A DNA stretch of 63,029 nucleotides, counting the filler, from Reticulomyxa filosa (taxonomy: Eukaryota; Protista; Foraminifera): the NCBI GenBank assembly GCA_000512085.1. It is 11 parts of 11 records of this genome, joined end to end, with 100 filler letters (N's around TTAATTAATTAA, not from the genome) between each part and the next. Parts side by side here need not be neighbours in the genome. Positions count along the whole stretch, not along the records: positions 1 to 28,482 come from ASPP01026168.1; 10 more parts are not named here. One strand, given 5' to 3'. Shown in pieces: positions 91-60,448 of this stretch. The stretch's first letter is position 1. Each line of letters begins with the position of its first letter. A program made the position numbers and the translations under genes. Under the pieces are notes generated by a model. The model saw nothing but the letters and a program-made list of their open reading frames with translations. It was not told where the DNA came from and searched no databases.

Positions 91-3000
91 AATCATTTGG
101 TTGGTCATTTGGGTCACAATCTGAGAAACATGCAATGCTTGCATTACCTGTTGACGTCGGATATTCGAAATGAAATCAGCCAAGAGCAAATTGACAGCGC
201 ACTGAATCGAGCGATAGAATTCCAGCACGAAAGTGTGGTGAAGGCGATAATGTCGTGGGAGTACTTGGACTCGAACAAGAAGAGCATGAGAGAGAGCGCA
301 CTGAACTTTGGGAAAGAGAAGTCGAAGATGGAACTGTTCTATCATTACTTGCGCCAAGGAATGAGTGAAAGCGACTTGGAATTTATGATGACCAAGTTGG
401 AGGAAGTAATGGTACAAATGATCGAAAACCACGAAATACTATCTACGGATGTGTTCAATTTGATTTGGATCCACAATAAAGACAATCTTTGGAACGCCAT
501 GCACTCGCAATGTCAAAAGATGTTACACGTCGATTCGCTCAGCGACAATGTGTGTGACTGGCAATGGATTCAATACCACGCTTTGGAGACAAATCATCTC
601 ATGTGTTGGTTGGACTATGACAACTCCGTCAAACACAGTAAGATGTTATCCAGAGATAAGTCAAAGCACAAGAGTATTAACAGCAATGGCAATCATCACA
701 GTCATATTCGTATCAATAATAATAGTAATAGCAATAGCAATAACAATAACAATAGCAATAGCAATAGCAATAGCAATAGCAATAGCAATAGCAATAGCAA
801 TAGCAATAGCAATAGCAATAGCAATAGCAATAGCAATAACAATGAAAATGGCAATGGTAATGAAAATGAAGAAAAAGACGAAGACGAAAACGAAAACGAA
901 AATGAAGATGAAAATGAAGATGAAAATGAAGATGAAGACGAAGAAGAGGAAAAACAATTGATACACACTAACTATATACGCAATGATGTTGCTCACGGAG
1001 ATCGCAAAACTGCAGCTCATAACTCGAAACACACGAAGCTGAAATGGGATGTGATACTGGACATAGCCAACAACGAGTTGAAAAAAGAAGAAACAAATTT
1101 CCAAGTGAAACTCAAACAAGACGTGGACAAAAACGAAAAAGAATTCGAACAGCTATGCCACTTCCATTGTGACGAGCTTATCAATCCCAAATTTTTGGGA
1201 AAAGAAAATAAAAAGAACTTGCGACAAGACAAAATCCCTTTCGGCGTTTGCGCTCAAATCACCGCTAAAGAGTTGGACGAAATGTCCCTATTTTGTAGCG
1301 AGTACTCATTCAATCCAAAACAGTCGTATGACTACAACATTTATTTGCATGAATTGTTACAACGAGCACATGCTTTGAATGACTCCTTTCAAAAGTTCAC
1401 TACTTCAACCAATCAATCAATCAATCTTTTTTTTTTTTTTTAAATAAATTAAAACATTATATACAATACATACGTACACAAATATGTACATATTATATAT
1501 ATACATATATGTACAAATATAAAATTGAAAGAGAGATGATGCACATGCTGTATGAATGCAAAGCGGATGAATGTGCGAAAGGACTCGTGAAAACACACGA
1601 ACGATGCAAATTGAAAGCAGAAGAGGAGTTTCGCAATGGCGCGTTTCCGAAATGTGCGCTGGTGATTGATGTAGTTCGGTGTTGTGCCATCTTTGATTCG
1701 ATAGAAAAGCTGCACAAAGGGTTGGAAATGTTCCGCGAGCAAATAAAGGCGTATCCGCGCAAAGAGAGCAAGAAAGAGATTCACCTCGAAATCATGCGCG
1801 TGAAGAACGGCTTTGCGCACTACAAGAGACAGCCCACGTCGCAAACGAACAGCGTGTACAGCGACAAATTGAGGCTCCCTATCCCAAGTACATTTACCAA
1901 TGTCAAGTTCAACATTATATTCACGGACCTGCGCCAAAAAGAAAGCGTTGTGGGTGAAGTCCAGTTCCTTCTCAAATCCATGGTCGAATTACATAAAAAG
2001 CAGTACAACTTTATTGAAATCAAAAGACGTGCCAATCACATACACGGTGTCTTTGAACAGTTCAATTTGAACACGTTCGACTTTCAATTGAAAATGGCTG
2101 GCTTCAATTCCGGGTCTTTGTGTCCTTTGATGCTCCATCATCCGTTGGAGTTTTGCAAGTCCGACTTGATTTTGAGAGGGCAAGACAACAGTGGCGACCA
2201 ATTCCTTGGGTCCATGGCCTACAACTGCAATGTCAAGTACCAATGTGCGAGGGAACTCATTCAACGTCTCATTCCACACAATGTCGTTCAAAAGCAATTG
2301 TTTACTGCGCCGCGGAGTGGTATATGTATTAATGCACCTTTTTTTTAATAAAAAAATAAATAAATAAATTATTATTTCTCTTTTTTATTTCCATTTCAAC
2401 TTTTCCTCCTCTCTTTATCCCTTTTTTTTTTCCCCCCTTGCGCAGGTGCTTATCCCTTCATGTACGCGATATGGAAGCAAACTTCTTTGGACGCTATCAA
2501 ATTGTTTGTACCAGAAGCTGCTGATCAATCCTTTTGGCATTACACTGACAGAGTTTCATTTGTGTCTTCGTCATATCACATAACGTACACATACACACAT
2601 GCAAACATATTAAAAAATAAACAAGCTTTTTTTTTTTTTTTGCAATAGCTTCGCTATTCGTTTTTACACTTTGGTGTTCGTAATATCAATGTGAAGTTGA
2701 TCGAGATCTTGAAATTCTTACAAACACACATATCACGACAAAAATGGGAAGAATATGTTGTGACCCAAGAATTGTCGGTATGTGTGGGACTTTCCTTCGT
2801 CAATATCTGCATTGTCCTAATGTTTTGAAAAAACTGAAAATCAAACCTTTTTTTTTTTTTTTGCAATTAATATGATGGGTTTGAGAATACAGCGTGGATT
2901 CACCCCTCTTCTTTTCGCCTTGTATTGGCAATTTGATATTTGCGAAGATGTTGTGAAATTACTCATTCCCGAAAATTATCACGAAAATTATGCGTTTTGG

Positions 3001-3867
3001 GAATGCACAACCAATGCCCGAGATGTTGAGTTAAAGAAAATACTAACAAAATAATTCTCTTTTCTTTTGATTTAGTGCACACATATATACATCACTTTGG
3101 GAACCAAAAGGACCAAGCCTCTGTCATTCACTTTGCTGGACGTCGTTTTAAAACTAATATTTTAGAATGTTTGCGAATATTACACAAATTTATGCCGTCG
3201 TCATCTTGGGAGACTTGCCTCAAAATGGTGGACAAAGTTTCGTATTTTTTCTTCGTTACAAAAAAAAAACGCTGTTTGTCATACGATATTCCACGCAGTT
3301 TTATGTGTGTTGTGTCCAATTAATCACGTATAGTATGGATATACTCCGATTATGTCCTGTTTACGATTTCAGCGAGATATTTGTGATGAAATGATTGACT
3401 TGTTAACTCCTCGGGAACTTCATATTCGTGACAATGAAATTAAAACAGAAGAAACAGAGCCTAAACATGGAGCTTGGAATTTCTGGGGACAAATCACTAC
3501 TGTATGTCTGCTCTTGTTCATTATCCTTTATTCTTATCAAACTATATTTGGCTTTTTTCTAAATAAAAAAATTGCCTAGAACTTGAGTGTTTTTCGTGGA
3601 GGAAATATTGTCCACTTGTGTTTGGCCAATCAATGTGGTAATGAGTTGGAACGATTACAGTGTCTGCGTAGACATATCCCACCAAAAATTTGGACATCTT
3701 TACTTTCGTCAAAAGACGATACACTGGTACGTATGCATTGTTCGTATTCTTTTCGAAACTGAATGTTAATGTTTGTTGTTCATGAATAGATGAAAGAAAC
3801 TCCTTTGGAATTAGCACAAAGAATGGAACCACCAACACAAATTTTAGATTTGCTAAGAGTTGATTAG
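91..3867 (+). CDS. Multi-exon, 5'-partial protein: Asn/Ser and acidic low-complexity region, divergent RelA/SpoT-like nucleotidyltransferase domain, C-terminal ankyrin-like repeats
   Basis: Acceptor ...aaacag| at 90. ORF 97-1443 joins ORF 1509-2348 through a GT-AG intron at 1395-1531 (DSFQK|EMMHML). Motifs GLVKTHERCKLK, DVVRC, RVKNGF and GEVQFLL are ordered like the Rel/SpoT synthetase motifs. Later exons encode GAYPFMYAIW, GFTPLLFALY, GYTPIMSCL and ETPLELA repeats. TAG at 3865-3867. Confidence 0.7.
715..950 (+). repeat. Coding (AATAGC)n Asn-Ser repeat followed by a GAA/GAT/AAT acidic repeat
   Basis: Tandem hexamer/trimer repeats directly visible and in frame with ORF 97-1443. Confidence 0.9.
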
Positions 3868-4008: not shown

Positions 4009-7000
4009 CTACAACTCAATATCATTATTTGATGGTTCTGTATCTTGAGAAGTAAGGTCTTTGATAGCCTTTTGTGCTCGTTTGGAGGTTAAAGTGAACT
4101 TGTTGTCTTCGGACCAATGCATATAAGATTCCAGTCGTTTTTGTGCGGATGGTTTGTTGAGTATTGTATCAACGACAGGTTCCAAGGTCTTGTTTACGGT
4201 TTCGATGTCCCAACAAAATTTCAAATAGCACATTGTCTTAAGTTGTTCTACTTGTGGTTTTCCAAATTCAAATTTGTCCAAAGACGAGTCAACTAAAGGT
4301 TTCCAATAAGTTTGAATAACATCTTCAGATGGAAAATCTCTTGACACATACCAATGTTTTTTAATGTTGCGATGTTTCCATTTGAACCAATTTTTGTTAT
4401 GTTCGTTGTGTTCAATACCCCCATCATCCGAAGGATTTTCACGTAAAGGTTTTTTATCCATTACAGGGGAATAAATCCAATCGCGAAATTCTTGCAATCC
4501 TTTTATAACAGTGTCCATTTCTGTCGTTCCTGGTTCTTTATTGTTGCAGAAGGCTTGAATAATTTCTACTCCATTGACAATTCCAATTCCCTTAATTCCC
4601 TCTGTGTAATCTGATCCTAGCAGCATGGCCAATCCGATCAATTTTTCACGAGATAAGCCCATTTTGGTGCGAATAGTTGCAGCTTTATATTGTTCGACGT
4701 TCTTGTCCATGTGGAACAAATGACGATAGATGAGTTGTCCATCAAACAAAAACACATCACTATCGTCAGTAACCACACCATCAACCAAGCCCAGCCGATT
4801 TAATTCTGCACATTGAGCCTCTGCCTCGGCTGGAGAGACAATATACGGGATACCGAACATATCCAAAAGTTGTTTGCATTCCAATATCATGGCAGGAGTG
4901 ACCTGCGCTTGTTCAGACAATTTATCGTCCAAAAAGTCCATGGCAGACAGTTCTTCCTTGTTCTCCAAGTTGTTCCACTCTTCAAAAGTGCTTACATTCG
5001 GAGGAAGATCTTCCACAGCATGTTCATCATTTGAATGTATTTCAACTGAGTCTTTTGTCTCTGGCTGCACTTCTATTTTCATTTCTTGTGTCTCTTCATC
5101 GCTTTCAAAAGTGGGAACGTCAATTTTAAAATCAGAAGGAACTTCTACAGACAAATTTGATGGAGAAATAGCACGACGAGATGCTTGATTCTGCTCCTGC
5201 TCTTCTTCTTCTTCTTCTTCTTCTTCCTCTTCAATTTTCATTTCCATTTCTTTTTCTTTTTCGTTTTCATCAACCGCAGACACATGATCCTCTTGCATTT
5301 CAACCACAGGTTTGGTTTCATCCGAAGACATGATATCTTGCAATGAAACAGTTACATGTGTCCCTTGCGTTAGCTTTGCAATTCTGTGAAAATTCTGTCT
5401 TGTATTTTTCAAATCCATGATTGCGTTTGGTACTTTGTTTTCTGGCGAAGGATTTTGGGGCTTTGCACTTTCAACAGCACGAGGGGGCAACCCCAAATCG
5501 CTGAGTAGCACAGGCACCATTAATAGTGGTATGTTTTGAATTGTGTCGTGAGCATCAATATGGCCATCATTGCCATTGGTAGTGTTAGATTCCTTTGGAC
5601 AATCACACTGTGAGCAGTGATCAACCATGTGAGAATTTTGCCACATGCACGTCGCACAAACCCATGTCATGGAAGACGAGCTGTCTGAAATGGAAGAGTT
5701 ATGGATAGCATCAGAGGGGACAGTATTGGATTGAATAAGCGTGGTATTGGTACTGCTGCCCCACGTCCGTCGATCGTGTTCGCAAACCGCACACTTGTCG
5801 AGTTTGCCTTCGTTGAGATGTTCACACAACAGACACTTCCACGACCCTCCTAAGGACTGCTCACGCGGACAGTTGCAGACATCACACGCAGCCCTTTGTT
5901 TCAGATTCAAGTATTTGCATTTGCCACAACTCCAATGTTCGGCAATATAGGTGCCATTGGCCTGAACGGAGGAAGAAGACGAGGAAGAGAGCAAAATAGT
6001 CTGCGGTCGATATTGATTGTTTTTGTGTTTATTCCAATTTAATTTCCTCTTTTTTGTGGCTTTGTCATTCGCTTCAAAGTTGGAAGGATACTTTCTTTTA
6101 ACCGGAAATGGCTGTTGTTGTGCAAGCGTAGGATCATGTTCATCTTTGTTTTCATGCCAATAAGAGTAATGATAATAATGAGTATTCACCTCGCTTGCAA
6201 TGCGATGCATCTTTCCACGTCCGTGTTCTTGTTGAATTCCATTGCTATTGCCATTATTGCCATTGCTGTTGCCATGTTCATCTTTTGTCTTTTCCAACAA
6301 GTCTTTGTGGTATTCACTGATCATTTCTTCGCGGATTTTTTCGATTTGCGAATTCATTTGTGATGTTTTCAAGACTGTTCCAAAGGAAGAAGAGTGGGAC
6401 AAAGCACATCGAATCTGATCGACCCCTCCTCTCTTCCCAAGTGTTACATGCACATATATGTAATTTGTTCGAGTATATTTGGATAAGTTTTCAACTGACA
6501 ATTCGTCAATTGAACACTCGCGTATTGTTCGGGGTCGGTCGATGCCACGAGAAACTCTTGTCTGTTCTCTTGTCTCAGTTGGTCTCGCATGCGTTGCATT
6601 ATTTCGTATTGCATCGACGCCGGATACTGTGCAATCTCCGCGGCTGTCAAATCGGTCAAGTCGTCGGGGAGTTGAAAGATTTCCTCTTCATTGCCGTTAT
6701 TCTTCTTTCTACTCCTATTCAAGTGTCTCGTCTTATTCTCAATCTTATTCTTATTACTTGTATCTTCCAACGGTCTTGATAACTCCTCGTCGTCATCGTC
6801 ATGATCATCATGGTCATCATCATGGTCATCATCATTGTCATCATTGTCATCATTGTTTTCATTGTTTTCATTGTTATCGATCGATTCGTCATCCTCTTCT
6901 CTTTCTTCTTTCTTTTCTTCTTTCTCATTGCTTGTTTCGTGCTTCTTTACACTCACACTCTCCTCGAAAATAAATGTGGTATATGAATTGGTCGTTCCGT

Positions 7001-7400
7001 CCACTTGCTTTGTTTCCTCTTTTTCTTCGCCTTTCAGAGACTGTGTTCGCATCAGTTTCAATTGATGCCATAACAGTCTCTCTGCTGCTTTGCGAATGTC
7101 ATTTTCACTCGCCTCGCGGCGGATTCGTCGCATTTTTAACGTCGAGCGCTTCAGTGCTGGCGGGGGACCGTCGAATACAAATACTGGTCTTATATTGAAA
7201 AATGCTAGTTTACATATCCTTCGAAATAGTCCAAGCAAATGCGCGTTCGCTATCACTTCCCCATTTGGGTTCCGCATCGCTTTCAGGAACTGGACCAGCC
7301 AAAGTGACGCGTCTACTGCCAACACTAAGCCATTCAACGAATCCATCGAGATTGTAGTGCCAGAAGGCTCTAAGAGTTTCCATAAGCCGTCGACACCCAT
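4009..7400 (-). CDS. ERCC5: XPG/RAD2-family nucleotide excision repair endonuclease; 2 exons, intron 6375-6499
   Basis: XPG-N motifs MGVDGLWKLL, DASLWL, VFVFDG. XPG-I motifs EAEAQCA, TDDSDVFLF. H3TH motif LLGSDYTEGIKGIG. PIP-box-like QKRLESYM near the C-terminus. A GTCAGT...CAG intron joins QLTN|FLKTSQMN, which explains the two overlapping ORFs. Confidence 0.93.
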
Positions 7401-7675
7401 TAATAAATAATGCTTATGGAAAGGGAATCCTCAAATAAATAAACATTCCGTTTTGGAAACCAAATTGTCAAAGAAACAGTTCCCCAAAGTTAAGTCATCT
7501 TTAAAAAACTTTTTTAAAGTGACACGTAATTTAAATGAATTGTCGCACTTGCGTTTGTTTTCCTTGAAGGAAAGATTTTTTAAATTCTTCGGTTTAAAAG
7601 TGAGAGACGAAAAGTTTTTATTTTTTTTCTTGCCACTTTTCAAAAAAAAGTGCAATTTTAGCACATTGAATAAAA
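7401..7675. promoter_or_regulatory. Probable bidirectional promoter between XPG and the amino-acid transporter
   Basis: Head-to-head ATGs at 7400 (-) and 7676 (+), 275 nt apart; no specific motif identified. Confidence 0.4.
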
Positions 7676-9733
7676 ATGAAAAGCAAAAATTCTCCGGTTG
7701 CCGATTTGGTTCATGTTCGTGATGGAGGAGGTACTACGATTGGCTTTTGGGGAGGTTGTCAATTGCTTGTAAATAACATGGCTGGTCCTGCCTTGGTGCT
7801 GTTGCCTAGTCTGTTCCAAGAAGCAGGATACTTGCCAGTGTCGATTGTTTTAATAATAACAGCCATATTATCAGGGATTGATGGCTGGATGTTAACAGAA
7901 GCTCTTCGGAGGATACCCGGCAACCACGATCTGTCTTTGCACGCAGAATACACTTCATTATTGGAACACTATTTACCAAAGACAGCGCACAAATGTTGTT
8001 TGATGGTATATTTGTTATCGTTGATGTCACTGTTAATGTCCAATATTATTCAATCAGCACAAGTTTGTCTTTATTTCGGTTCCTATTTTTTGATTTTCCC
8101 TCCCCTCCTTCTTTCCCTAACCATAACTTTTTTAATGTAAAAAAAAAAAAAAGGTGACTGACTTGGCTATTCGTGATATGTTTGGTTGTTCGTATGGATT
8201 GGAGTTGTATGGCTACCACCATGAAAGCGAAACGACACATGTGATGCGTCTCATATGTGGCGAAATAAAGCATAACATAACCCCATTCGAAGACAACAGC
8301 ATTGTATTAAGCAGCGGTTTCATATTGCTGGGGTTGATCTGCATGATGTTTAGCAACAAAAACTTGAATGACAATATTATTTTGCAATGGATTGCAAATA
8401 TTGGTTTGTGCGTGTTGGTGTCGATATGGCTATACGTATTTTCCAAGCAAAAGACATTCGACTCTCATCGAATCCCATTTGCCACATGGCGTTTCGACCA
8501 CGTTTTAGGCGTGGTCTTATTTAACTTTGCATTTATTGGTAAGTTTATATTTGTGTATTGTTATCACTACAATTTAACAAACGTTTTAATTATCAGTTAT
8601 TATTATTATTTTTTTTTTTTTTTTTTAAATTGAGGAGAGTTACGATCCCTTCGTGGGTAAACGAAAAGAGAGCAGAGGTATCGATTGTGATGACACTGAT
8701 ATCTTCGTTATCATTTGTAGTGGTATTGTTCGGACTGATTGGCATATTGGGAGGCATGTCGTACGAGAATTTCTTTCAGAGCTCGAGCAACTTGTTTACG
8801 GCGTTGGACAGTAGCGGATCATTAGGGAGGTGGACGGTGTATCTGTTTCCAATTGTGCAAACAGTCACGTCCATTCCTGTGTTCAGCATTGTCATTCGAT
8901 ACAATTTGGAAGACTACGGCTTTGATCGCACACGTGCCAACATTGTTGCCATTATGTTGCCATGGCTGTTTTCCATCTTTTTATACACTGGCGAAGGATT
9001 CAATGAGCTTTGTGATTGGTCCGGCACTTTTTTGGCGTCATTCGTAAACTTCATTTTGCCACCTTATCTCTACATTCGAGCGCTACAAGAAGTCGATATG
9101 AAGTTGGTCGGGGAATTAAGGGATATTAGCAACAACAACAACAACAACAACAACTTGAAAATGGAAATCGAAATGCACAAAATAGACGAACGCATTGACA
9201 ATCCTAACAAAAATACCAATGACAATACTGCAAGTCTTGCAGAGAATGATATTGCAAATACAAATGAGGAAGATAACGAAGATGACGATGATAAAGCGCA
9301 AGAGATGATGTCATTGCTACACGTCCACACAGATCGCTCTATGAACAAAAATGTTTCAGACGAGGTTGTAAACAAGAAGTTGGAAGATGAAAAAAGAGAC
9401 TTTCGAGGAAATGATGAGTTCTCATTAGTAAATAGAGAACTGGAAACTGTGGATGATGTGTCACAAAGTAAAACTGAATTGCTTCTGTTAAGAAAACGAA
9501 ATCATTGTAATACCTCTTCACAATCCTTGTCAGCACAGAACGGGACAACGAAAACTAAAAATAAACTTAGACTTCGCAATCGACTGGAAACTGAAAAAAC
9601 AGGCTTTTCTCAAACTCCTGATCAAGGGTTAATATGGCGATTAAGACTTGCTTATGCTTGTTTATATCTCGCATTTGCTTTGACACTATTTGTCATTGGT
9701 CAAAAAATTATCATTGGAGATGTTGCGCGCTAA
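7676..9733 (+). CDS. Amino acid transporter (Aa_trans/AAAP family); introns 8063-8153 and 8539-8639
   Basis: Motifs LLVNNMAGPALVLLPSLFQEAGY, GVVLFNFAFIVTIPSWVNEK and SIPVFSIVIRYNL, plus many hydrophobic segments. The GT-AG introns keep the frame. Confidence 0.85.
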
Positions 9734-17913: not shown

Positions 17914-19368
17914 TTACAATTTGGTGTCTTGAGATATTTGTTGTGAGGATTCGTTAGTAATGTTTTCATTTACTGTAGTAACATTATTGTCTGTAGCATG
18001 TTTTGATTTTTCGTGCTCTTCTTCAAGTTTCATTTCTTCTGGAACGGGTACGAAAGAATCGATGGATGGCCCTTTGTAGTCCACAAAGTACTCATTCATT
18101 TTATGAATAGTAAATTCTCTCAATATCAGATTGTCTTCTTCATCTTTGCCAAAACCACTGGCTGTACCATTGAATTCTAAGATGTATTCTTTGCCATCTT
18201 GAGCAGCAACCAAAACATCTACAGTAACAATGTCCATACCACCAAAGCTCTGTCCACAGATATCCGCCCAAAATTTATATCGTGGCAACAATTCCAAGTC
18301 CTCAATATGTGCTGTCCCAGTATTAGTTTTCCAATTGCCACTCATTGAAATTCTTTTGAATACCCGATAATGTGTACCGATTTTTTGGATTCTCAAATCA
18401 CATTGCCCTTTCATTCAAATTTTAAAGATTGTGAGAAAAGGTTGTCTGGATAGTATATGTACATAGGAAAATATATACAAACCTTCAATATACTTTTCAG
18501 CCGTGCAATACTGACCTGATGATATGTACATGTGCAATTTGAAGCAAAAGAAAAGAGGCAAGCATATATGAACAAAGACCGACAAAAGAATTATTTACCG
18601 GTGCAAGTCACAACGGATTTTAAATCTTGAAACTGCTTTTGATCGTCTAATAGCATCTTTCCATATCCGGCGTGACCGGCCCCAATTTTGATCACAAGAG
18701 GACCTGATGGAGAGGTAGTCATTTCTTCACCAGACGAGTAATAATGATGGGGGAAAATAGGAAAATTCTCTTGTCCATAAATACGATTAAATTTAATCAA
18801 TTCGGCGATCATCAATGGTCGATCCAACATACAATATTCGCTTATTAAACTGTTGTATTTACGTGAGCGCATATGCACTAAAAAAAAAATTGTGGGCAAA
18901 TATATCTTCATGCCTGTTTATAGACGGTAATTGTGCATGAATAAAACCAAATAATTTGTTGCGATTGTCTCCTCCAGGAAAAATCATAAAACACAAATTA
19001 CGAATCAACAAATAATCTGGTATGAAGGTACGTGCCCCTTTTTCAGATTGCGGCGTGTCCGGGATTGGTTTTCGTGGGCGTTGCAATGTGCACACGCATT
19101 TGCTGTCTGAATAAGATGTGAATGTTATATCTGCCCAACCTGCCTGCTCCACAATAATCTCTCTACCATTGGAAAGTTTGCAGCCCTTGAACAGGCTATA
19201 AAAGTTTTCGTCGGCGTGTGAAGAGATTACCAACAGTCGTACTGGTTTGTTCTGCTCTCCTGACACTCTACTCGGATGTTTAAAATCATCAATCCTACGT
19301 TTTATATCTTCGGCATTTCTACTTACATGTTCATCGGTTTCGGTTAGATTTTTTTGAGAATTTCCCAT
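17914..19368 (-). CDS. Synapsin-like ATP-grasp protein; exons 19368-18914, 18849-18599, 18515-18483, 18407-17914
   Basis: Synapsin C-domain motifs: VEQAGW, TFIPDYLLIRN, LPSINSL, PLVIKIGAGHAGYGKM, YCTAEKYIE, DLRIQKIG, RISMSGNWKTNTG, FGGMDIVTVD, DGKEYILEFN. The splice junctions restore a continuous frame. Confidence 0.9.
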
Positions 19369-20024
19369 CTTTTGATTATTTCGTCAATCCTAACAAAAAC
19401 TCACCAAACAAAAACTGGGCCACGGTGTGTTTCTTCATCCCATTTTAATTGTTTTTAAGCTGATTTTGAGTAATGAAACAACACAGCAAAAGTTCCTAGA
19501 TTTCACAAAAATTGCTTTTTTTAATTAAGATATGTCCCATCGAATAATACAATATTACAAAAATCCAACTACTGTAAAGAAATATATTACTATAAAAAAA
19601 AATTTTTTACTAGCTATAAACTTGTAGAATCTTTTCGCGACAAATATCGGAAATGCATGAAATTTATTTTCAAAATTTTCTTCAAAACTTAAGATTTTGA
19701 AGTATAGTCAATTTAAACTTACATTCTTCAAAATAAAACTTTTTTAACAAAGTTAATATTAATGAATAGTGAGACTAATACTAATTTTTAAAAAATTATA
19801 GCAACACATCAACAGGGTATCTAACATTAATGTATTTGTATAAGCTTGTATTTGTATAATTTGCTATACAAAATATTTACAGACTATCTTTGGAATTGAA
19901 TGTACATTCTGTAATGTAGAAGAATTACACAAGAAAAGAGTAGCCAAGAGTGGAAATGTACATTATCCTTGGAGTGATGAAACTGAAATCATATGACGCA
20001 GTGAATGTAATATTACATATACTA

Positions 20025-46799: not shown

Positions 46800-48493
46800 T
46801 TACTTATCTACTTCCCACACTTGGACTTTTTCAATGACGACTTTGTGCATTTTTTTGGGCAACATGACAGCCAAACGATAGCATCCAGTGGGAATGTTTG
46901 AGAAAGCTACACCTTGTGACTTTCCTCCTTTTCCAAATTCAAGTTGGTTGGTGGCCATATCTAATACCACAGTGACAACATCACCAGCTTTATACGTAGC
47001 GCCATATTTACGGTATTTTCCTCCTTTCATAATGCCTCCATCTTTACCAAAGTACCCATAGCCTAATCGATCAGTGCAAAAGATAGTATTGAGAAGTTTG
47101 CGATACTTGGTGCTATTTTTTTTGAGCGAGTCATCTGTTTGCATAACTCCGATTGCAGCTTGTCCTCCTTGGGTCACTCGAATGATCCATTCGACTTTCA
47201 TATCTTTAGTCACTTCCACTAGTCCAAATGCACTATTTCCATCCTGAATGCTGTTTTTGGCCAAACACGAGTTTCCATCAATTCGCAATTGCGTTCCTGA
47301 AAACGCAAATTGGTCCTCGGTGGCCCTTGGCTCCTTCCATTTCACGTCGACAGCACTGGGCTGTCGAGCTAACAGCAATGATTCGCTGGCCGTTTTGGTT
47401 GGGTTTTTAGGTACCGATTCAGGTCTCAATTTCGCTCCCGTTCCATTTGTTTTGGTTGACGTAGTAGCACTGGTGGTTGATGTTGCTCTCGCTGGTGGCT
47501 TCTTTGGCTGTGTGAGCTTTGAGGTAATTTTAGTGCCATTTGCTTTTGGAGTAGGCTTTCCGCGTTGTGGGGCTTTGTTGGTGTTGGTACTGGTGTTGCC
47601 TGTTTTGCGGCCTTGCCCTGTGGACTTATCCGGCACCTTTTTTGCCGGGGTCACATTTTTTGAAGTCATTTTTGGCAAGTCCGTTGACGGCATCTTTCCG
47701 TTTGGTGCTCTGGTTGACTCGGTTGTTTGAGCAGCTTTGCCATTTACCGATTTTACGTCCGCTGCTTCCTCCTTGTTTTCTTTCTCTTCTGTTTTCTTTT
47801 CCATTGCTGCTGGATCCTCCTTTCGGTTCGCTGTCTTGTCGTCTTCTGGTCCTTCGAATTTGAATTCCTTTTTGATCGTTCAAAATAAACAAACAAAAAA
47901 AAGTAATGTCCTCCTACTTTCGATTTTTTTTTAAAAAAAAATAATAATACGACTTAACATCAGAAGATGACTTATTGTGTCCAAACCAACTTGCGCCTCG
48001 AGCATGGTGGCCTCCATTGCTAAAATTGCTGGGTCCTAAGATGCAATATTGTAATTATTTTGCAATGTATGAAGTAAAGATCAACCAATCAATAACAATA
48101 ACAACAAAAAAAACAGTTTTTTTAAAAAAAATGAGTGGATTCACATATGTATCAAGTGAGATCAGTTGTGTTGTTAACGTGGTGAATATTGTTTCGTGTT
48201 GTAAAGGGTTGATTCCAGCAATTTCACTTGATGTGGCCTGTATTGAAGGGAAACAGCAAGTCTGTAGCCATCAACGCCTTCGTCTTCATTTGTCTGCAAA
48301 TGTTCGAAAGCGACACCGTGATCATTGCCGTTAACACTGAAACGTAATGTATGTTTTTCCATGTCCAAATGAATTCCAATGACGTCCCCTGATTTGAATC
48401 CCTCTCCCCATTCGATCAAAGATCGATGGCAATAAATGCTTCCATCATCGCCGTAGCCATAGCCATACTGTGAGTCAGTATAATCTTCTCCAG
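46800..48493 (-). CDS. 5'-partial protein with two SPRY/B30.2 domains separated by a Lys/Thr/Pro-rich linker
   Basis: SPRY motifs YGYGYGDDG..WGEGFKSGDVIGIHLDM..LRFSVNG..GVAF and GYGYFGKDG..YGATYKAGDVVTVVLDM..GVAF. Phase-compatible GT-AG introns link them (SP|RPSNF, SSD|EFKFEG). Confidence 0.8.
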
Positions 48494-48511: not shown

Positions 48512-48611
48512 NNNNNNNNNNNNNNNNNNNNNNNNNNNNNNNNNNNNNNNNNNNNTTAATTAATTAANNNNNNNNNNNNNNNNNNNNNNNNNNNNNNNNN
48601 NNNNNNNNNNN
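48512..48611. other. Artificial contig linker
   Basis: N44-TTAATTAATTAA-N44. Confidence 0.98.
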
Positions 48612-49571
48612 GACGACAAGAGTGGCGATCGGCGCGTCGATTTGGGAGAGCGACAACTTGAAGTTTGACTTTCGCAAATGGATGACACATGCCGAAATTG
48701 GACTGAACAAAGCCATTGCGCGCGATTGGAATTGCTGCGTGTTGTCGAAAGGCGACGAGGCCGACCTCAGTCAATTGAACGCATTGGCAGTGCCACCGTC
48801 CACTGCCAGTGTCAGTACTGGTGTTGGTGTTGGTATTGGTGGCGTCAGTGTCGGTGTCGGCGCAGGAGATCAAAACGCACACAAACATCAATCCACTTTG
48901 TCCAGATTCGCCACCGCCTCGCTTTCTCAAAGCAACTTGTTGATCGGACAACAAGGCAATTTAGGACTCACCACAGAACAGATTCAACAAGTTTTGTTTT
49001 GTTTCATTTGATTTCGTTTTGTTTTATTGAAATCCCTTGTCTTATTTATTTGTAATACTTGTAGAGCTTGCAATTGTATGATAAACTTCAACGACTCGAA
49101 AGTGGCGACAAGGACAGCTTTATCGCGCTGTCTTTGGTTCGCAGCTATGTCGCTGCTGGCGCACATTACAACTTCCAAAATTACAATGACAATGGAAACA
49201 CGCTGCTAATGCTCTCCATTATCAAACCACTCCCTATGATCATTCTCTACTTGTCCAAAAAAGTCTCCGCCGATGTCAACTTTGACTTGCCCAATGCTGA
49301 CGGAAACACTGCGCTGATGCTCGCCATTGAGTATGGCCTGTCCGATGATGTCATTCGTCTTCTTTTATCCCTTACCAAAGATAAAAATGTTGAAAATAAA
49401 GTTGAGGCTTTTCAAAATATATTACTCGGTTTTATCTTAATCACAATCCATTCATTAAATATATACATGTACATACATATACATATTTGTATGCAGAGTG
49501 GAAAAACTGCACTGGCCATCGCACGACAAAAAGAAAGAGAAAATATCATTCGATTGTTATCAGAAGTTTGA
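48612..49571 (+). CDS. 5'-partial ankyrin-repeat protein with a possible GGDEF-like segment upstream
   Basis: Ankyrin repeats NGNTLLMLSI, DGNTALMLAIEYG and SGKTALAIA; GT-AG introns near 48991-49065 and 49401-49497; TGA at 49569-49571. Confidence 0.8.
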
Positions 49572-50401: not shown

Positions 50402-51000
50402 TTAAGTGTACGCCATTTCGTACCACGTATCTTTTCCATGCTTCACTCTAGATTGACCTTTCAATACAAACCCAACCTTTTGATAAAACGGAATCAAGTA
50501 TTTTTTGGCCAACAGTTTGATAGTGCTTAATTCATCTTTTTCAAGCTTTGGATGCATCGTTTGCAAATATTTTTTGAGTAATTGCGTTCCAAATTTGTGT
50601 CGACGATACTTTTTATCAATCACAACGGAATGTATGCAAAGGGTCTTGCCACCGTCGATATGTGATTGCATGCTTTCTTCTGTTAATTCGGCTTTATTTT
50701 TTAAATTTAATCCATTAAAAAAATGTTGAAATATCAATATGCAAAAAAAAAAAAAAAAAATCGTCAAATAATAATAATAATAATAAAAGACAAACCAGAG
50801 TCGGCTAGAGTTCCGCAGATAAATCCAACTGCTTGATCATTATAAGTTAAAACCTTGAAATATTCGGAAGCAAAGATGAAGCGATAGTACAAGTTTTCGG
50901 ATGAAGCAGCTTCGTCGGGAGGATAACTTTCGGCCTCGAGTTCACAAATTTTGGCGAGATCGGACTTTTTTACAGCACGGACAGTGAGCAATTTCAAGTT
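50402..51000 (-). CDS. GNAT N-acetyltransferase domain, arylalkylamine/polyamine acetyltransferase (AANAT/PAA1)-like
   Basis: [73 protein letters not shown]. Confidence 0.9.
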
Positions 51001-51691
51001 GAAGTCAGTTTTGGCGGAAGCGTCTTGCGATACTTCTCGAGTGCAATTCTCTGCCCTCACATAAACGTTCATTGTCGGAAGCTTCACCAAGCAATGACTG
51101 GCGTCTGTCCGAAGCAATTCACCTGTGCCAAATGGCGTTTTTACCAATTCCACAAATGCACTGCTTCTGTAAGCAGGCACGTGTTCACGAGTAGGACTAG
51201 TTTGCGTGCCATTATCATCTTCACTATGTTTCGATTCATCTATGCAGAAAAGAGTTTTAATCATTGTCATTATTATTATTATTGTTGTTGTTGTTATTGT
51301 ATATGTTCACTCCTAACCTGAAACAGGGTCTTGTCCTTTATTTGGAGGGACTTCGGCGTTATTGGCTTTTTTGTCTCTTGCTTTTTTATCTCTGCCTCGC
51401 CGATGGGATTCGTCTGTGGATGTTTCGGATTGCGGACTGTCTGATTTGAACTGCCGCTCTGTTTTTTCTTTGCGGGGGCCACGAGGGGACAAGCTGCGAG
51501 GGGTGTGAATACGTGGCATCCCCACGTGATCCTTGGCAGCCAACTCGGCTTCACCATTGTCGAAGCTCACATGTTTCTCGTGGGCACCACTTCGCGGACT
51601 CATTTGCAATGACTTCAAAATACCAGGTGGCCGTGTAATATTGGCGTTTTGAATATATTTCGGTGAAGGACTGCGACCCAAGTCACTCTTT

Positions 51692-51722
<31 letters not shown>

Positions 51723-54408
51723 TGAGCAAATAAATGAATGAATAAATAAAAGAACAAAATAGAATCACAAACCTTGGGTGTACTTTGCATTGCCTGTTCT
51801 CTTTGCTTCTCTCTTTCTTTTTCTTTCATAAGCTCCAAGTCAATGGGCAGCAATGGACCCATATTGGTAGGGTCAATCGTCGACGATTTCGACACCGCCG
51901 GAGTGATGGAATCCAATTTCACCAAGTCATTTGGAAATTCCTCCCACGATAGTTTCCTCTTGCGTTCCTCCAAGTTTTCGTCCAACACTTGGCCCGTCTC
52001 TTCGTCATATTCACCGCGGCTTCCCACCTGCGCTCTCTCTGCTCGAGTTCCTCGCGTGTCATGTTCCTCACGTGTGCGCTTTCCTTTCGTCGAAGATTCC
52101 GTATTGTCGTTTCGACTTTTTTGTCCGGATTGAACGTCCGGCAACTTTGATGAGTGGACATTTTTAAACAAAAAAAAAGTCCGAGTCCGAAATTTGTGTT
52201 TTCCTAATATGACAGAGAAAGAGAGAGAGAGAGAGAAAGAAAGAGTTGTAAAGTGGTACGAAACCAAACTGAGGTGGTGTTTAAAGCAGAGGATTTATTT
52301 GGGACCACAAAAGACTGATTATCTAACGTGGTTGGTGTTTCGGTGGGCGAGTCGTTTGCAAGTGTGACAATATCTTTCATGACGGTGGTCTCGACCTTGT
52401 TGTCTTTGTCCTTATCTTTATCTTTATCTTTAGACCCTCGATTGTTTATTTTTTGATTAATACCATGGTGCTTCAAACTCAAGTTTACATTCTCTCCTTC
52501 TTCTTCCGCGTCCACATCAAACTCATCTGCCAAATCTGTCGACGCCCGATCGAGATTCATCACGTTCAATGTCGTGGCCAGGGTCGGCTTGTCGTATTTG
52601 GGATAGCCCTCCATTTTTATAAAGTTTTCCTCTTCACGAAGGATTAGAGCTCGGTAATCCAGTCGCGTGTTCGGCACACTGGTGTAATAGATATCATTGC
52701 CTGCACTTCCTCGTAACGAATAGTTTTTGCCTATCCATGATCTCTGAATACGTGTATACATACATATATGTATATATGTATATGCATATGTATATGTATA
52801 TGTATAATATGTGATTATGAATGCACAACCCAACTTTAGTTTGATCATCCCAACCCGATTGTAATACAGAGTTTCTGGCAATTTCACACAAGTCAATGGA
52901 AGACAAATTGAACACTTGAGCACAGATTGAATACTCTTCTAACAGCGCGTCTTTGGTGTAACTAGTATTCACATATAATTGCAATTACAATCATTTAAAC
53001 AAACAAAAAGGTTCGAAACTGAATCAATAAAGGATCGTCTGTTGACAATGCCACGTTCAAGCCTCTTTTGAAAAAGTTTGGAAACGGGTTTTTATTGTAT
53101 TCACAAACTAATATGTTATTCGACAATGGAGACACTGAAACGCCGACCTGTGTTGTATTTGTTGTTTTTTATCAGGTAATACCACTACTTTGTCCCTTTT
53201 TTTTTTTTTTATGTCCAAAAAAATATCTCTCCCCCTCCCTCTACCTATTTTTTTTGTTTGCATACTGCAAAATACAAATACATGCCCACCTGATCCAAGT
53301 AATAGAGATATTGCAACACAGGAGACCGTTTTAACAAAATGCCGTGATTGATTGAATTGGCTTGTCAAAACAATTGAGGAGAAGAAAACAACCAAAGAAT
53401 TTTTTTTATAAGGCTATGAAGACTAATGGTCATAAAAGATATGTACATATGTGTATACATATATACACATATATATACATATATTATAGATATTTACCTA
53501 AAAGATAAGCTGAAGCCAAATGATCGACACTGCCTGCCTCCCCACTATGGGGGCGGAAAGAAAAAGTGTTCATTCCTCGTTCTTCCCTCAGCTTGTTTAA
53601 TTTGATAATGTTGACCCACATATAATACATGTACATGCTATCAATAAGAGAACAACACAAGTGTCGAGCAATTGAAATTCGATCAAGTTATCGATGGTTG
53701 TTTTTTGTTTGTTTGTTTGTTTGTTTGTTTTTTTTTTTTGGTTTAAAAGACACGAAAAGTTTGAACATGTAGGGAGGATTGGAGTCATTAGTCCAGTCAT
53801 CTGGATCGTGACGCCTACCCAAGCGAGGGTCAGGCATTGATTCATCGTCTACGCTATCGAACCCAACGACTGTTTCTAAAAACTTGTGTAGCTATCAATT
53901 CAATTCAACATTGAACATTGAATAATGAATAATGAATAATGAAATGTCATGTTAACCTCATCTTTTTTTTAAAAAAAAAAAAAAAAAAAAAAGAACAAAC
54001 TGAAGGACAACTGGAAGGGTCAATGGTGACTTGGAACAAAGGCAAGAAAATGTTTTCCAGCATTTGACCAAAGGACTTGAGTATTCCACGACTTCGATAG
54101 ATATGATACAAGCGCGGGACTTGGATCAACCATCGAACGTGGTCCGAGTGCAATTTGAAGTCACACACCCAATCGGCAAGCACCTTCCATTCGTCTCCCT
54201 TTGTCCCATACACTGACAAGCGACTTTCAATTTTGGTATATTTTCCCCACTCCAAATCTGAAAACACTTGTTGTGTTAATTCCGCAAAGTATCGACCTTT
54301 CATATAATTATCGACTTTCAAAAATATGTTTCGAAATTCGGAAATACCAACCGGGTTATATTTCAGATTGAACTTGTCGAATCTTTCAAATGTGCCCCGT
54401 TCTGCATG

Positions 54409-54409
<1 letters not shown>
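50402..54409 (-). CDS. 5'-partial AMP deaminase apparently fused, via a low-complexity linker, to a PAA1/AANAT-type GNAT acetyltransferase
   Basis: The AMPD exons continue in frame through GT-AG introns 52145-52269, 51688-51772, 51240-51317 and 50692-50795 into the GNAT domain; final stop at 50402. Confidence 0.72.
52620..54409 (-). CDS. AMPD: AMP deaminase catalytic domain (multi-exon)
   Basis: Motifs [89 protein letters not shown]. Confidence 0.96.
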
Positions 54410-54448
<39 letters not shown>

Positions 54449-54450
54449 AA

Positions 54451-54550
54451 NNNNNNNNNNNNNNNNNNNNNNNNNNNNNNNNNNNNNNNNNNNNTTAATT
54501 AATTAANNNNNNNNNNNNNNNNNNNNNNNNNNNNNNNNNNNNNNNNNNNN
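54451..54550. other. Artificial contig linker
   Basis: N44-TTAATTAATTAA-N44. Confidence 0.98.
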
Positions 54551-59483: not shown

Positions 59484-60230
59484 TATATGCAAGCCCATGA
59501 TATTGTTCATTTGGACTTGAAACCCGACAACATCTTGTTTGAACGGAAAGATGAAGATTCGCCCATTAAAGTTTTTTCATGCATACATCAACATTACCCT
59601 TTGTTTTTCAATGGACCAAATTACACATATTCAAGCTCAGATTTTTAGTGTGCACGTATATGTATGTATATTGGGGGGGGGGGAGGATAGGTGATTGACT
59701 TTGGAATGGCACAAATAGTGCCACGAATGAAAAAGCTGAGACAATTGGTGGGAACACGTTTAGTGTTTTATGTGTGGTGTTTTTTTGTTTAATGTTTATC
59801 AAATGGAGCATAGTGACACTACGTTGCATACAAAAATAAATGTACGTATGAATACAGCGTATTACACGGCGCCGGAAGTGTTGAATGGGAAATATGATCG
59901 TTCGGCAGACATGTGGAGTGTTGGAGTGATATTGTTTTGCATGCTATTTGGGTTTCCTCCTTTTTACGTGGATCACGACTGCCTGATGGTGGGACAATCG
60001 GAGGAAGACGCGATATTTAACGCGATCCAAAACGGCTTTACTCCAGTCACTCAGCCCGGCTACGGGCCTTGGTTTCCAGAAGGGTCCCAAGTCTCCGACT
60101 ACGCAAAAGACCTCATCTCCAAACTGCTCGTCAAACAAGTCAAAGATCGTCCCACCGTCGCCGAGTGTCTATCTCATCCATGGATCCGAGGAGAAGCAAA
60201 CGATCACGCCATTCCACGTACCGTTTTTCG
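59484..60230 (+). CDS. CAMK/CDPK-group Ser/Thr protein kinase, subdomains VIb-XI (partial)
   Basis: HLDLKPDNILF, VIDFGMA, GT..YYTAPEVL, DMWSVGVILFCMLFGFPPFY, AKDLISKLL, ECLSHPW. Confidence 0.92.
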
Positions 60231-60248
60231 ATCTCTTTTGTTTCGTAC

Positions 60249-60279
<31 letters not shown>

Positions 60280-60448
60280 TAGCTACTTGAAGATGAAGGG
60301 GAAGGAGTACGTATGTGTAGCTTATTATGCATTTAATAATCCACTATAGTAAGTGTGTAAAGAGGGGAGGGGATCAGTTGGTCAATGTTTGTTTACCAAA
60401 CTTTTTTACTTTTTTTTTCTTTTTTTTTTTTTAAAAAAAAAAAAAAAA

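What the first reader, a model, noticed from the sequence alone, without database searches (positions are those of the whole stretch)
1532..3867. Eukaryotic RelA/SpoT-like nucleotidyltransferase domain fused to ankyrin-like repeats
Seen in sequence: GLVKTHERCKLK...DVVRC...RVKNGF...FTNVKFN...GEVQFLL, in the order of the Rel/SpoT synthetase motifs (RxKxxxSxxxK, DxxxxR, GYxSxH, ExQxRT). The third motif is substituted. About six ankyrin-like repeats follow, in an intron-containing gene. Established: (p)ppGpp synthetases are bacterial or plastid-associated, and divergent small alarmone synthetases can make (pp)pApp or pyrophosphorylate tRNA. Inference: a repeat-sensor-gated nucleotide second-messenger, toxin or immunity enzyme in a protist, with possibly changed substrate.
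Basis: partly seen in the sequence, partly recalled or inferred. Interest (0 to 1): 0.78.

Follow-up and report, generated by a model that had tools for sequence, protein, structure and literature searches.

The report
Likely disabled protist alarmone-synthetase-like ankyrin protein
A spliced gene of a foraminifer-type protist places a domain predicted to fold like bacterial "alarmone" (ppGpp/ppApp) synthetases between ankyrin-like repeats; it belongs to a large, untested eukaryotic family, and this copy has lost seven residues that the family almost always keeps, so it is likely a weakened or non-catalytic, ATP-binding member.

Summary
The five motifs are there, in an intact gene of at least 992 codons with eight GT-AG introns; it starts before the window, not at 1532. 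An AlphaFold model of the window's own domain (pLDDT 89.7) matches RelA/SpoT synthetases first (Z 11.5 to RelQ), though Pfam RelA_SpoT misses it. Eight ankyrin-like units follow, about one per exon. The domain belongs to a large eukaryotic family: 3,653 representatives at 50% identity, with at least 13 other Reticulomyxa-named relatives. Its first two motifs have the spacing of Tas1/Apk ppApp synthetases. New here: this copy differs at 7 of 24 near-invariant family positions, while 100 of 151 relatives differ at none. ATP/metal residues are kept; the changes fall on the inferred acceptor side and include Tyr-to-Phe at the inferred G-loop, the standard impairing mutation of these enzymes. Best reading: an impaired or non-catalytic paralogue in a family of probable pyrophosphokinases. 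No activity is shown. This scan met the family four times before on other DNA.

The parts
91..1394 (+). First visible exon (codons 1-435 of the model); follows an acceptor AG at 89-90, so the gene's 5' end lies before the window start
   Evidence: Open frame and splice sites; residues 1-175 align to Reticulomyxa-named paralogues P0023, P0021, P0020 at 33-39%
91..630 (+). End of an N-terminal ankyrin-like stretch (about 91-270) and a conserved, probably helical region
   Evidence: Pfam Ank_2 E=0.12 on residues 13-55; the matching part of P0023 carries Ank_2 at E=4e-8
673..954 (+). Low-complexity Asn/Ser then Asp/Glu linker
   Evidence: Sequence; shorter acidic linkers at the same place in paralogues
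1222..1230 (+). RQD motif ahead of the domain, a family mark of unknown role
   Evidence: RQD within 60 residues upstream of the domain in 126 of 141 homologues long enough to test
1309..1394 (+). First helix of the RelA/SpoT-like domain (YDYNIYLHELLQRAHALNDSFQ), cut from the rest by intron 1 (1395-1531)
   Evidence: Family profile matches both exons
1532..2060 (+). Core of the RelA/SpoT-synthetase-like domain. Kept: K455, R459, K463, D481, R484, R524, K526, N527, K560, N562, E577, Q579, R600. Changed from the family: P453L (1584), Y468F (1629), Y556F (1893), D558N (1899), K589H (1992), H593Y (2004), Y596I (2013)
   Evidence: Alignment of 151 homologues; model and fold searches
2181..3867 (+). 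Eight ankyrin-like units in two alternating types, about one per exon (2181-2319, 2446-2552, 2649-2777, 2893-3024, 3111-3236, 3334-3501, 3580-3726, 3790-3867 with stop)
   Evidence: Splice model; unit-to-unit z-scores 7.8 and 13.6 within one type, 9.2, 3.4 and 5.7 within the other; ankyrin profile from three relatives scores 11.9 bits against a best shuffle of 6.3; 37% identity over 471 columns to Ank_2-positive P0005 across four introns

Best explanation
This is an intact spliced gene of a foraminifer-type protist whose product joins ankyrin-like repeats to a domain predicted to have the RelA/SpoT (alarmone synthetase) fold, and it is likely an impaired or non-catalytic paralogue that would still bind ATP. 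Shown: gene structure, family membership, residue changes, predicted fold. Inferred for the family: intact members transfer pyrophosphate from ATP to the 3'-OH of a nucleotide, as bacterial small alarmone synthetases do, and the repeats hold the enzyme off until a partner binds. Inferred for this copy: the ATP/Mg side is complete but the acceptor side is eroded, so it binds ATP and partners without making much product, acting as scaffold, decoy or regulator among its many paralogues.
For: Fold: first 23 listed Foldseek rows and top 8 VIA rows are RSH synthetases (RelQ 5dec Z 11.5, rmsd 2.7, 128 aligned; RelP 6ewz Z 10.6; SaEAS 8vx3 Z 10.5). Family chemistry: K455, K463, D481, R484, K526, N527, E577 invariant in 151 of 151, in the order of FaRel2's donor-site K66, K74, D90, E145, Q147 (PMC11782079 passages). 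This copy: 7 changes at 24 columns that are at least 90% conserved; 100 of 151 relatives have 0, 31 have 1, only P0067 also has 7. 0 of 10 changes in the donor/metal set, 6 of 9 in the second set. Y-to-F at the G-loop is described as the established way to impair RSH enzymes, and FaRel2-Y128F still binds APCPP at 2.1 uM. Erosion is commoner in the Reticulomyxa clade (mean 1.9 changes, 11 proteins) than outside it (0.5, 140 proteins), as expected of an expanded family that spins off pseudoenzymes. Repeat domains braking a synthetase have a bacterial precedent (Tde-SAS TPR; PMC10434055 abstract).
Against: No activity has been measured for any member, so 'impaired' is relative to an inferred activity. 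That F556 is the G-loop tyrosine rests on motif order and on its place before the strand at model residues 124-132; I had no residue-level superposition. I drew the donor/acceptor split after seeing the changes. Several changes are mild (Y to F twice, D to N), and a separate five-member clade (P0008, P0010, P0073, P0120, P0144) keeps F-x-Q-x-L/I-x-N at the same motif, so Phe here can be a stable state. The 151 relatives are the best hits of a profile that included this protein, not a sample of all 3,653. Some changes could be assembly errors or allelic; no reads could be laid.
Confidence: 0.5

Rival explanations
1. Active enzyme with a re-cut acceptor site: it still activates ATP but passes the pyrophosphate to something other than a free nucleotide, such as an RNA or tRNA 3' end, a protein hydroxyl, or water.
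For: All 10 donor/metal residues are kept while changes cluster elsewhere. tRNA-modifying FaRel2 has a smaller positive patch on the acceptor side than alarmone synthetases (PMC11782079 section 13), and this copy loses K589 and H593. The frame is intact over 992 codons.
Against: tRNA-modifying toxins also need the G-loop tyrosine (Y128A non-toxic, bioRxiv 575399 passage; Y128F impaired). No sister protein shares this set of changes, so there is no conserved new specificity clade.
Confidence: 0.17
2. Ordinary working member of the family: it makes the family's alarmone-like product, perhaps more slowly, under control of the ankyrin repeats.
For: 17 of 24 conserved positions are kept, including the catalytic Asp and Glu; the model is confident; substitutions in plant/diatom RSH motifs have not always abolished activity (PMC6881373 passages).
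Against: Y468 is invariant in 151 of 151, and D558N and Y596I occur in none of them; K589H in 1, H593Y in 2.
Confidence: 0.14
3. A decaying duplicate with no current function.
For: Most eroded member of a lineage-specific expansion, tied with P0067; no RNA evidence in hand.
Against: No stop or frameshift in 992 codons, 8 of 8 introns with GT-AG ends; donor-side residues untouched; end branch 0.63 against a median 0.41, not flagged as long.
Confidence: 0.12
4. Not pyrophosphokinase-like chemistry at all: a pol-beta nucleotidyltransferase (NMP transfer, as in TUTases or cGAS) or a non-enzymatic RsfS/Iojap-like binding fold.
For: RsfS/Iojap chains score Z 7.8-8.3 and TdT 7.0 on the window's model; profile comparison with E. 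coli RelA alone gave nothing; no Pfam RelA_SpoT match.
Against: RSH synthetases lead by about 3 Z units and align 128-141 residues against 90-101 for RsfS-like chains; the basic first motif matches Tas1 by sequence; Atlas models of RelA_SpoT clusters match paralogue P0001 at TM 0.67.
Confidence: 0.07

Closest known systems
Bacterial small alarmone synthetases RelQ/SAS1 (5dec, 5ded), RelP/SAS2 (6ewz, 6fgk) and the exported SaEAS (8vx3)
   Same: Best structural matches of the window's own model (Z 10.3-11.5, 128-133 residues; Foldseek E 6e-5 to 8e-4); same order of basic helix, catalytic Asp, G-loop aromatic and E-x-Q strand.
   Different: 9-16% identity; motifs differ (P-x-K-x-x-x-R for R-x-K-x-x-x-S, D-x-x-R, Y-x-D-x-K for Y-x-S-x-H, E-x-Q-F-L for E-x-Q-x-R-T: 0 of 151 have E-x-Q-x-R-T, 2 have Y-x-S-x-H); nuclear, spliced, flanked by ankyrin repeats.
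Tas1/Apk1 and Apk2 (p)ppApp synthetases
   Same: Tas1 (6ox6) is the best PDB sequence match of two family profiles, on the first motif only (P-I-K-x-x-x-R-x-x-x-K-x-x-x-D-Y; E=0.17); the second motif has Arg where Apk has RYT against AVR of RSH (PMC12226406 passage); structural Z 8.5.
   Different: The sequence match is weak and 27-28 residues long; the third motif is not G-x-N (3 of 151), the fourth is not Y-H; no secretion domain or immunity gene; the structural score is below that of RelQ/RelP. Product cannot be read from the motifs.
tRNA-pyrophosphorylating toxSAS (CapRel 7ztb, FaRel2 8pu3/8pu4)
   Same: Same fold (CapRel Z 9.3, rmsd 6.1, 141 aligned); CapRel is a sensor-gated fusion, as guessed here.
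   Different: No antitoxin or pseudo-zinc-finger domain seen; G-loop tyrosine is lost in this copy.
Treponema Tde-SAS (DsRel, SAS-TPR) and fungal NLRs with an N-terminal RelA_SpoT domain
   Same: Synthetase domain joined to repeat domains; TPR acts as a brake in Tde-SAS; RelA_SpoT listed as effector domain of fungal NLRs (PMC4986451 passages).
   Different: Those domains match Pfam RelA_SpoT or keep Syn1-4; this one does not. No NACHT or NB-ARC domain in the visible gene; ankyrin rather than TPR.
Eukaryotic divRel SASs (Dictyostelium, ascomycetes, diatoms) and plastid RSH1-4
   Same: Eukaryotic RSH synthetase domains (PMC3153485 passages).
   Different: Those were found with RSH profiles and are sporadic or plastid-linked long RSHs; this family is a large expansion that Pfam and NCBIfam miss. 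Overlap with divRel/FunRel/MixRel was not tested.

Membership tests
RelA/SpoT homologue (RSH) synthetase domain | Synthetase fold of the pol-beta type | tested here: met
   Model pLDDT 89.7, pTM 0.82; top 8 VIA rows and first 23 listed Foldseek rows are RSH synthetases. Predicted, not solved.
RelA/SpoT homologue (RSH) synthetase domain | Match to Pfam RelA_SpoT (PF04607) or an NCBIfam RSH model | tested here: not met
   No match at E up to 10 for the window's exon; 0 of 42 relatives at 1e-5.
RelA/SpoT homologue (RSH) synthetase domain | ATP-donor and metal residues (basic first motif, catalytic Asp, E-x-Q) | tested here: met
   K455, R459, K463, D481, R484, E577, Q579 present and conserved in 146-151 of 151; equivalence to FaRel2 residues is by motif order.
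RelA/SpoT homologue (RSH) synthetase domain | G-loop tyrosine that stacks the acceptor base | tested here: not met
   Tyr in 142 of 151 relatives, Phe556 in this copy; position assigned by motif order and model.
RelA/SpoT homologue (RSH) synthetase domain | Pyrophosphate transfer from ATP to a 3'-OH | not testable with these tools
   Needs an enzyme assay.
Canonical (p)ppGpp synthetases (Rel, RelA, RelP, RelQ) | S-x-H in motif 3, A-V-R type motif 2, I-R after E-x-Q | tested here: not met
   Signatures as given in PMC12226406; absent in the window and nearly all of the family.
Apk/Tas1 (p)ppApp synthetases | RYT (motif 2), G-x-N (motif 3), YH (motif 4) | tested here: not met
   Only the Arg of RYT is matched (R-C-S/A); Y-x-G-x-N in 3 of 151; E-x-Q-F-L in place of YH.
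toxSAS toxin-antitoxin / NLR-type immune effector | Linked antitoxin, hydrolase or NACHT/NB-ARC domain | tested here: inconclusive
   None in the visible gene; the downstream neighbour is an XPG nuclease. The 5' end is missing and no whole genome is held.
Ankyrin repeat proteins | Tandem helix-turn-helix repeats of about 33 residues with a TPLH-like start | tested here: inconclusive
   Units are 36-56 residues with TPL/TPI/YPF-like starts; Pfam Ank E=0.084 on 1 of 8 units; homologous to Ank_2-positive paralogues; local profile beats all 999 shuffles. The repeat region was not folded.
Unnamed eukaryotic RelA/SpoT-like family (GPVK..R..K / D..RC / R.KNGF / Y.D.K.N / E.Q / K...H..Y) | Profile match and tree placement | tested here: met
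   E=3e-52 to profile A4, which included this protein; found without it from the other side: P0001 and P0003 hit at 2e-15 and 1e-51; sits in a 12-row clade, SH-aLRT 96, quick tree.

The most novel reading that the evidence does not exclude
Protists run a large, repeat-gated nucleotide signalling or defence system built on an alarmone-synthetase fold, and this copy is an active enzyme whose acceptor site has been re-cut to pyrophosphorylate an RNA end or a protein instead of a free nucleotide.
Probability: 0.13. Interest if true: 0.85.

Novelty: new variant of a known kind. Interest (0 to 1): 0.5.

Why it matters
Alarmone synthetases are treated as bacterial or plastid enzymes with a few scattered eukaryotic strays (PMC3153485). 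Here is a family of thousands of eukaryotic sequences, missed by Pfam and NCBIfam, with an invariant active site and ankyrin, WD40 or RCC1 partners. If intact members are active, protists have an undescribed nucleotide messenger or cell-arrest system, and that is testable with one purified domain. This particular gene matters less as an enzyme than as a natural control: it shows which residues the family can lose, suggests pseudoenzyme regulators within the expansion, and is the wrong member to assay first.

Tried and rejected
Library scans: no RelA_SpoT match in Pfam (not among the 25 of 32 families shown), NCBIfam; PHROGs gave 10 single-member weak matches, none named as an RSH (122). PDB by sequence: nothing useful from the single exon or shallow profiles. 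hhalign of the family against E. coli RelA alone: probability 0.4%, misaligned. Viral contigs: 0 of 258 candidate stretches. Phages and plasmids by tblastn: only E above 3 or no match. Prokaryote genomes: the one hit L003 is a chance peptide in a VWA-type protein, rejected; 1 of 401 genomes of that phylum matched at E=0.003 over 59 positions (119, L004, not followed). So no close bacterial relative or donor was found in those searched. RNA: no RNA holder listed; this says nothing on expression. No second copy of the domain in the window. In one search two regular expressions were faulty and are not used (the 'D....R' line repeats another pattern; the window's 'K...H..Y' hit is at another place). 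My ankyrin seeds were badly in register, so that score is a low estimate. The tree is the quick version. The Atlas gave an answer only for the paralogue, not for the window's own protein. No complex prediction was run. Considered and rejected: gene start at 1532 or at the Met of the 279-residue database entry P0002 (it begins and ends inside introns); bacterial contamination (eight spliceosomal introns); plastid RSH (no hydrolase, TGS or ACT part seen).
Full report
Gene. The finding lies in a spliced + strand gene. Nine exons (91-1394, 1532-2319, 2446-2552, 2649-2777, 2893-3024, 3111-3236, 3334-3501, 3580-3726, 3790-3867) join through eight AT-rich GT-AG introns of 63-137 bases into 992 codons with one stop at the end. 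The first exon follows an acceptor AG, and the window's first contig is 28,482 bases (N block from 28,483; same length as the contig of the window's own database protein P0002), so the 5' end is cut by the contig edge. Homology runs across introns 1-4: 37% over 471 columns to P0005 and 41% over 371 to P0003. Introns 5-8 rest on splice sites, frame and repeat register. The database entry P0002 (279 residues) is exon 2 only, read into introns at both ends. The nearest named relatives are Reticulomyxa filosa proteins, so the source is a foraminifer, probably that species or close kin (inference).

Fold. Pfam, NCBIfam and direct PDB sequence searches give nothing. AlphaFold2 on window 1533-2081 with 116 relatives gave pLDDT 89.7, pTM 0.82. 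Foldseek's first 23 listed rows are all RSH synthetases, led by SaEAS 8vx3 (E 6e-5, TM 0.53), RelP and RelQ, then Tas1, Rel, CapRel and FaRel2; the first other row is TdT at rank 45. VIA-align over 48,161 chains ranks RelQ (Z 11.5, rmsd 2.7, 128 aligned), RelP (10.6), SaEAS (10.5), RelP of B. subtilis (10.3), Rel (10.1), CapRel (9.3), Tas1 (8.5) and RelA (8.3) first; RsfS/Iojap chains follow at 7.8-8.3 and other pol-beta enzymes at 7 or less. For paralogue P0001 the ESM Atlas gave 27 of 30 feature hits in unnamed clusters (the three shown at 0.95, eukaryotic where recorded), 3 in a set with RelA_SpoT (0.90, 34% of members), and a structural match to a RelA_SpoT cluster at TM 0.67.

Family. A nine-sequence domain profile found 3,653 representatives at E up to 0.001, 1,000 at 1e-10, 244 at 1e-30; only the best 150 were listed. 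Named members come from Reticulomyxa, Nonionella and Bolivina; Atlas clusters add ciliates and diatoms on very few records. Of 42 relatives that I chose (mostly long ones plus the nearest clade), 21 carry ankyrin repeats, 2 WD40, 2 RCC1 and 0 RelA_SpoT at 1e-5. In a quick tree the window's protein sits in a 12-row clade (SH-aLRT 96) whose other 11 rows are all Reticulomyxa-named; with RFI_24241 and ETO35982 that makes at least 13 relatives named from one species. They share the whole layout: ankyrin-like start, helical region, acidic linker, RQD motif, domain, ankyrin-like tail.

Motifs. From 153 proteins, 151 domains were aligned with the window's (2 dropped for covering under 110 profile positions). 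The family reads G-P-V-K-x-x-x-R-C-x-x-K-x-x-x-D-Y, D-x-x-R-C, R-x-K-N-G-F, Y-x-D-I-K-x-N, E-x-Q-F-L-L, K-x-x-x-H-x-x-Y-x-x-x-R. K455, K463, Y468, D481, R484, K526, N527 and E577 columns are invariant in 151 of 151. The first motif matches Tas1 (best PDB sequence match of two profiles, the only one for A7; E 0.17) and the second has the Arg placement of Apk's RYT, but motifs three and four fit neither the ppGpp nor the ppApp signature. Pyrophosphate transfer from ATP is therefore a fair inference for the family; the acceptor cannot be read off.

This copy. Of 24 columns at least 90% conserved, the window's protein differs at 7: P453L, Y468F, Y556F, D558N, K589H, H593Y, Y596I. Among 151 relatives 100 differ at none, 31 at one, 11 at two, 8 at three to five, and one (P0067, same clade) at seven. 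It keeps all 10 residues that I assigned to the ATP/metal side and changes 6 of 9 in the second set, where 127 of 151 change none (the split was drawn after seeing the data). Y556 sits just before the strand that follows the long loop (model residue 121), where RSH enzymes have the base-stacking G-loop tyrosine (inference). PMC11782079 calls Y-to-F there a well-established way to impair RSH enzymes and reports that FaRel2-Y128F still binds APCPP (2.1 uM) and tRNA. Two of the seven codons need two base changes from the family residue, which argues against simple sequencing slips but does not exclude them.

Repeats. The last 340 residues fall into eight units whose borders mostly coincide with introns 2-8 (six of phase 0). 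Units 2, 4, 6 resemble each other (z 7.8, 13.6; but 2 against 6 only 0.2), as do 3, 5, 7 (z 9.2, 3.4, 5.7). Pfam sees only unit 4 (Ank, E 0.084); the same region of P0005 is Ank_2-positive. Ankyrin-like is reasonable; the region was not folded.

Mechanism. Shown: gene, family, residue pattern. Predicted: fold. Inferred: intact members bind ATP-Mg on the basic helix and Asp481/Glu577 and pass pyrophosphate to a nucleotide 3'-OH; repeats restrain or target them, as the TPR domain does in Tde-SAS. For this copy I commit to an ATP-binding, poorly or non-catalytic paralogue (0.5), against re-cut acceptor (0.17), normal activity (0.14), decaying duplicate (0.12) and non-RSH chemistry (0.07). A toxin or immune role is possible by analogy with fungal NLRs and bacterial effectors, but nothing here tests it.

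Novelty. Nine literature searches listed no paper describing this family; one search was uninformative because 'rela' matched ordinary words, and the library lacks most subscription papers. Eukaryotic RSH synthetase domains as such are known (divRel, plastid RSH, fungal NLRs). What I saw of each paper: passages from keyword finds for PMC3153485, PMC4986451, PMC3482391, PMC12226406, PMC12691689, PMC6881373, bioRxiv 575399 and 2022.03.16.484565; abstract, outline and passages for PMC10434055; passages and section 13 for PMC11782079. No supplements were read; those of PMC3153485 and bioRxiv 575399 could list members of this family under divRel, FunRel or MixRel. This scan's own notes describe what appears to be the same family four times in other genomes; none was found by sequence or in this genome. 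Verdict: real, a new variant of a known kind; the family is the interesting object and this gene is one of its most eroded members.

Noticed in passing
window 4009-7430, - strand: Convergent neighbour is an XPG/Rad2 nuclease gene (XPG_N E 1e-29, XPG_I E 3e-25) with RanBP2-type zinc-finger-like Cys motifs between the two halves; no sign of a functional link.
   Followed up: partly
P0008, P0010, P0073, P0120, P0144: A long-branch five-member clade (SH-aLRT 100) replaces Y-x-D-x-K-x-N by F-x-Q-x-L/I-x-N while keeping K-H-Y-R in the last helix: a conserved candidate for a changed acceptor, better than the window's copy.
   Followed up: no
P0067 (RFI_20384), P0005, P0104: Further eroded copies in the same Reticulomyxa clade (7, 4 and 3 changes), at partly different sites, suggesting repeated loss of activity.
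   Followed up: partly
P0023 and P0164: Two family members are named 'Ras guanine nucleotide exchange factor' by NCBI; Pfam shows only ankyrin in P0023 at 1e-5, so the name looks like a transfer from the repeats.
   Followed up: partly
P0036, P0126, P0071, P0084, P0019: Other fusions of the same domain: coronin-like WD40 (P0036), WD40 (P0126), RCC1 repeats (P0071, P0084); P0019 shows two matched stretches.
   Followed up: no
window 1222-1230: An RQD motif precedes the domain in 126 of 141 relatives; role unknown.
   Followed up: no
window 28483-61804: Ten pairs of 44-N blocks mark joins between short contigs, so genes beyond 28,482 are not true neighbours.
   Followed up: partly
window 7670-9733 (+), 17914-19383 (-), 46800-47879 (-), 48568-49571 (+), 50402-51306 (-), 53947-54498 (-), 59764-60282 (-): By eye and recall only, not tested: amino-acid transporter, synapsin-like ATP-grasp protein, SPRY protein, ankyrin protein, GNAT acetyltransferase, AMP deaminase fragment, Ca/calmodulin-type kinase.
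   Followed up: no
L004 (G189:C4:40438-40614): Single weak bacterial match to the family profile (E 0.003, 59 positions, 135-residue frame); not examined.
   Followed up: no
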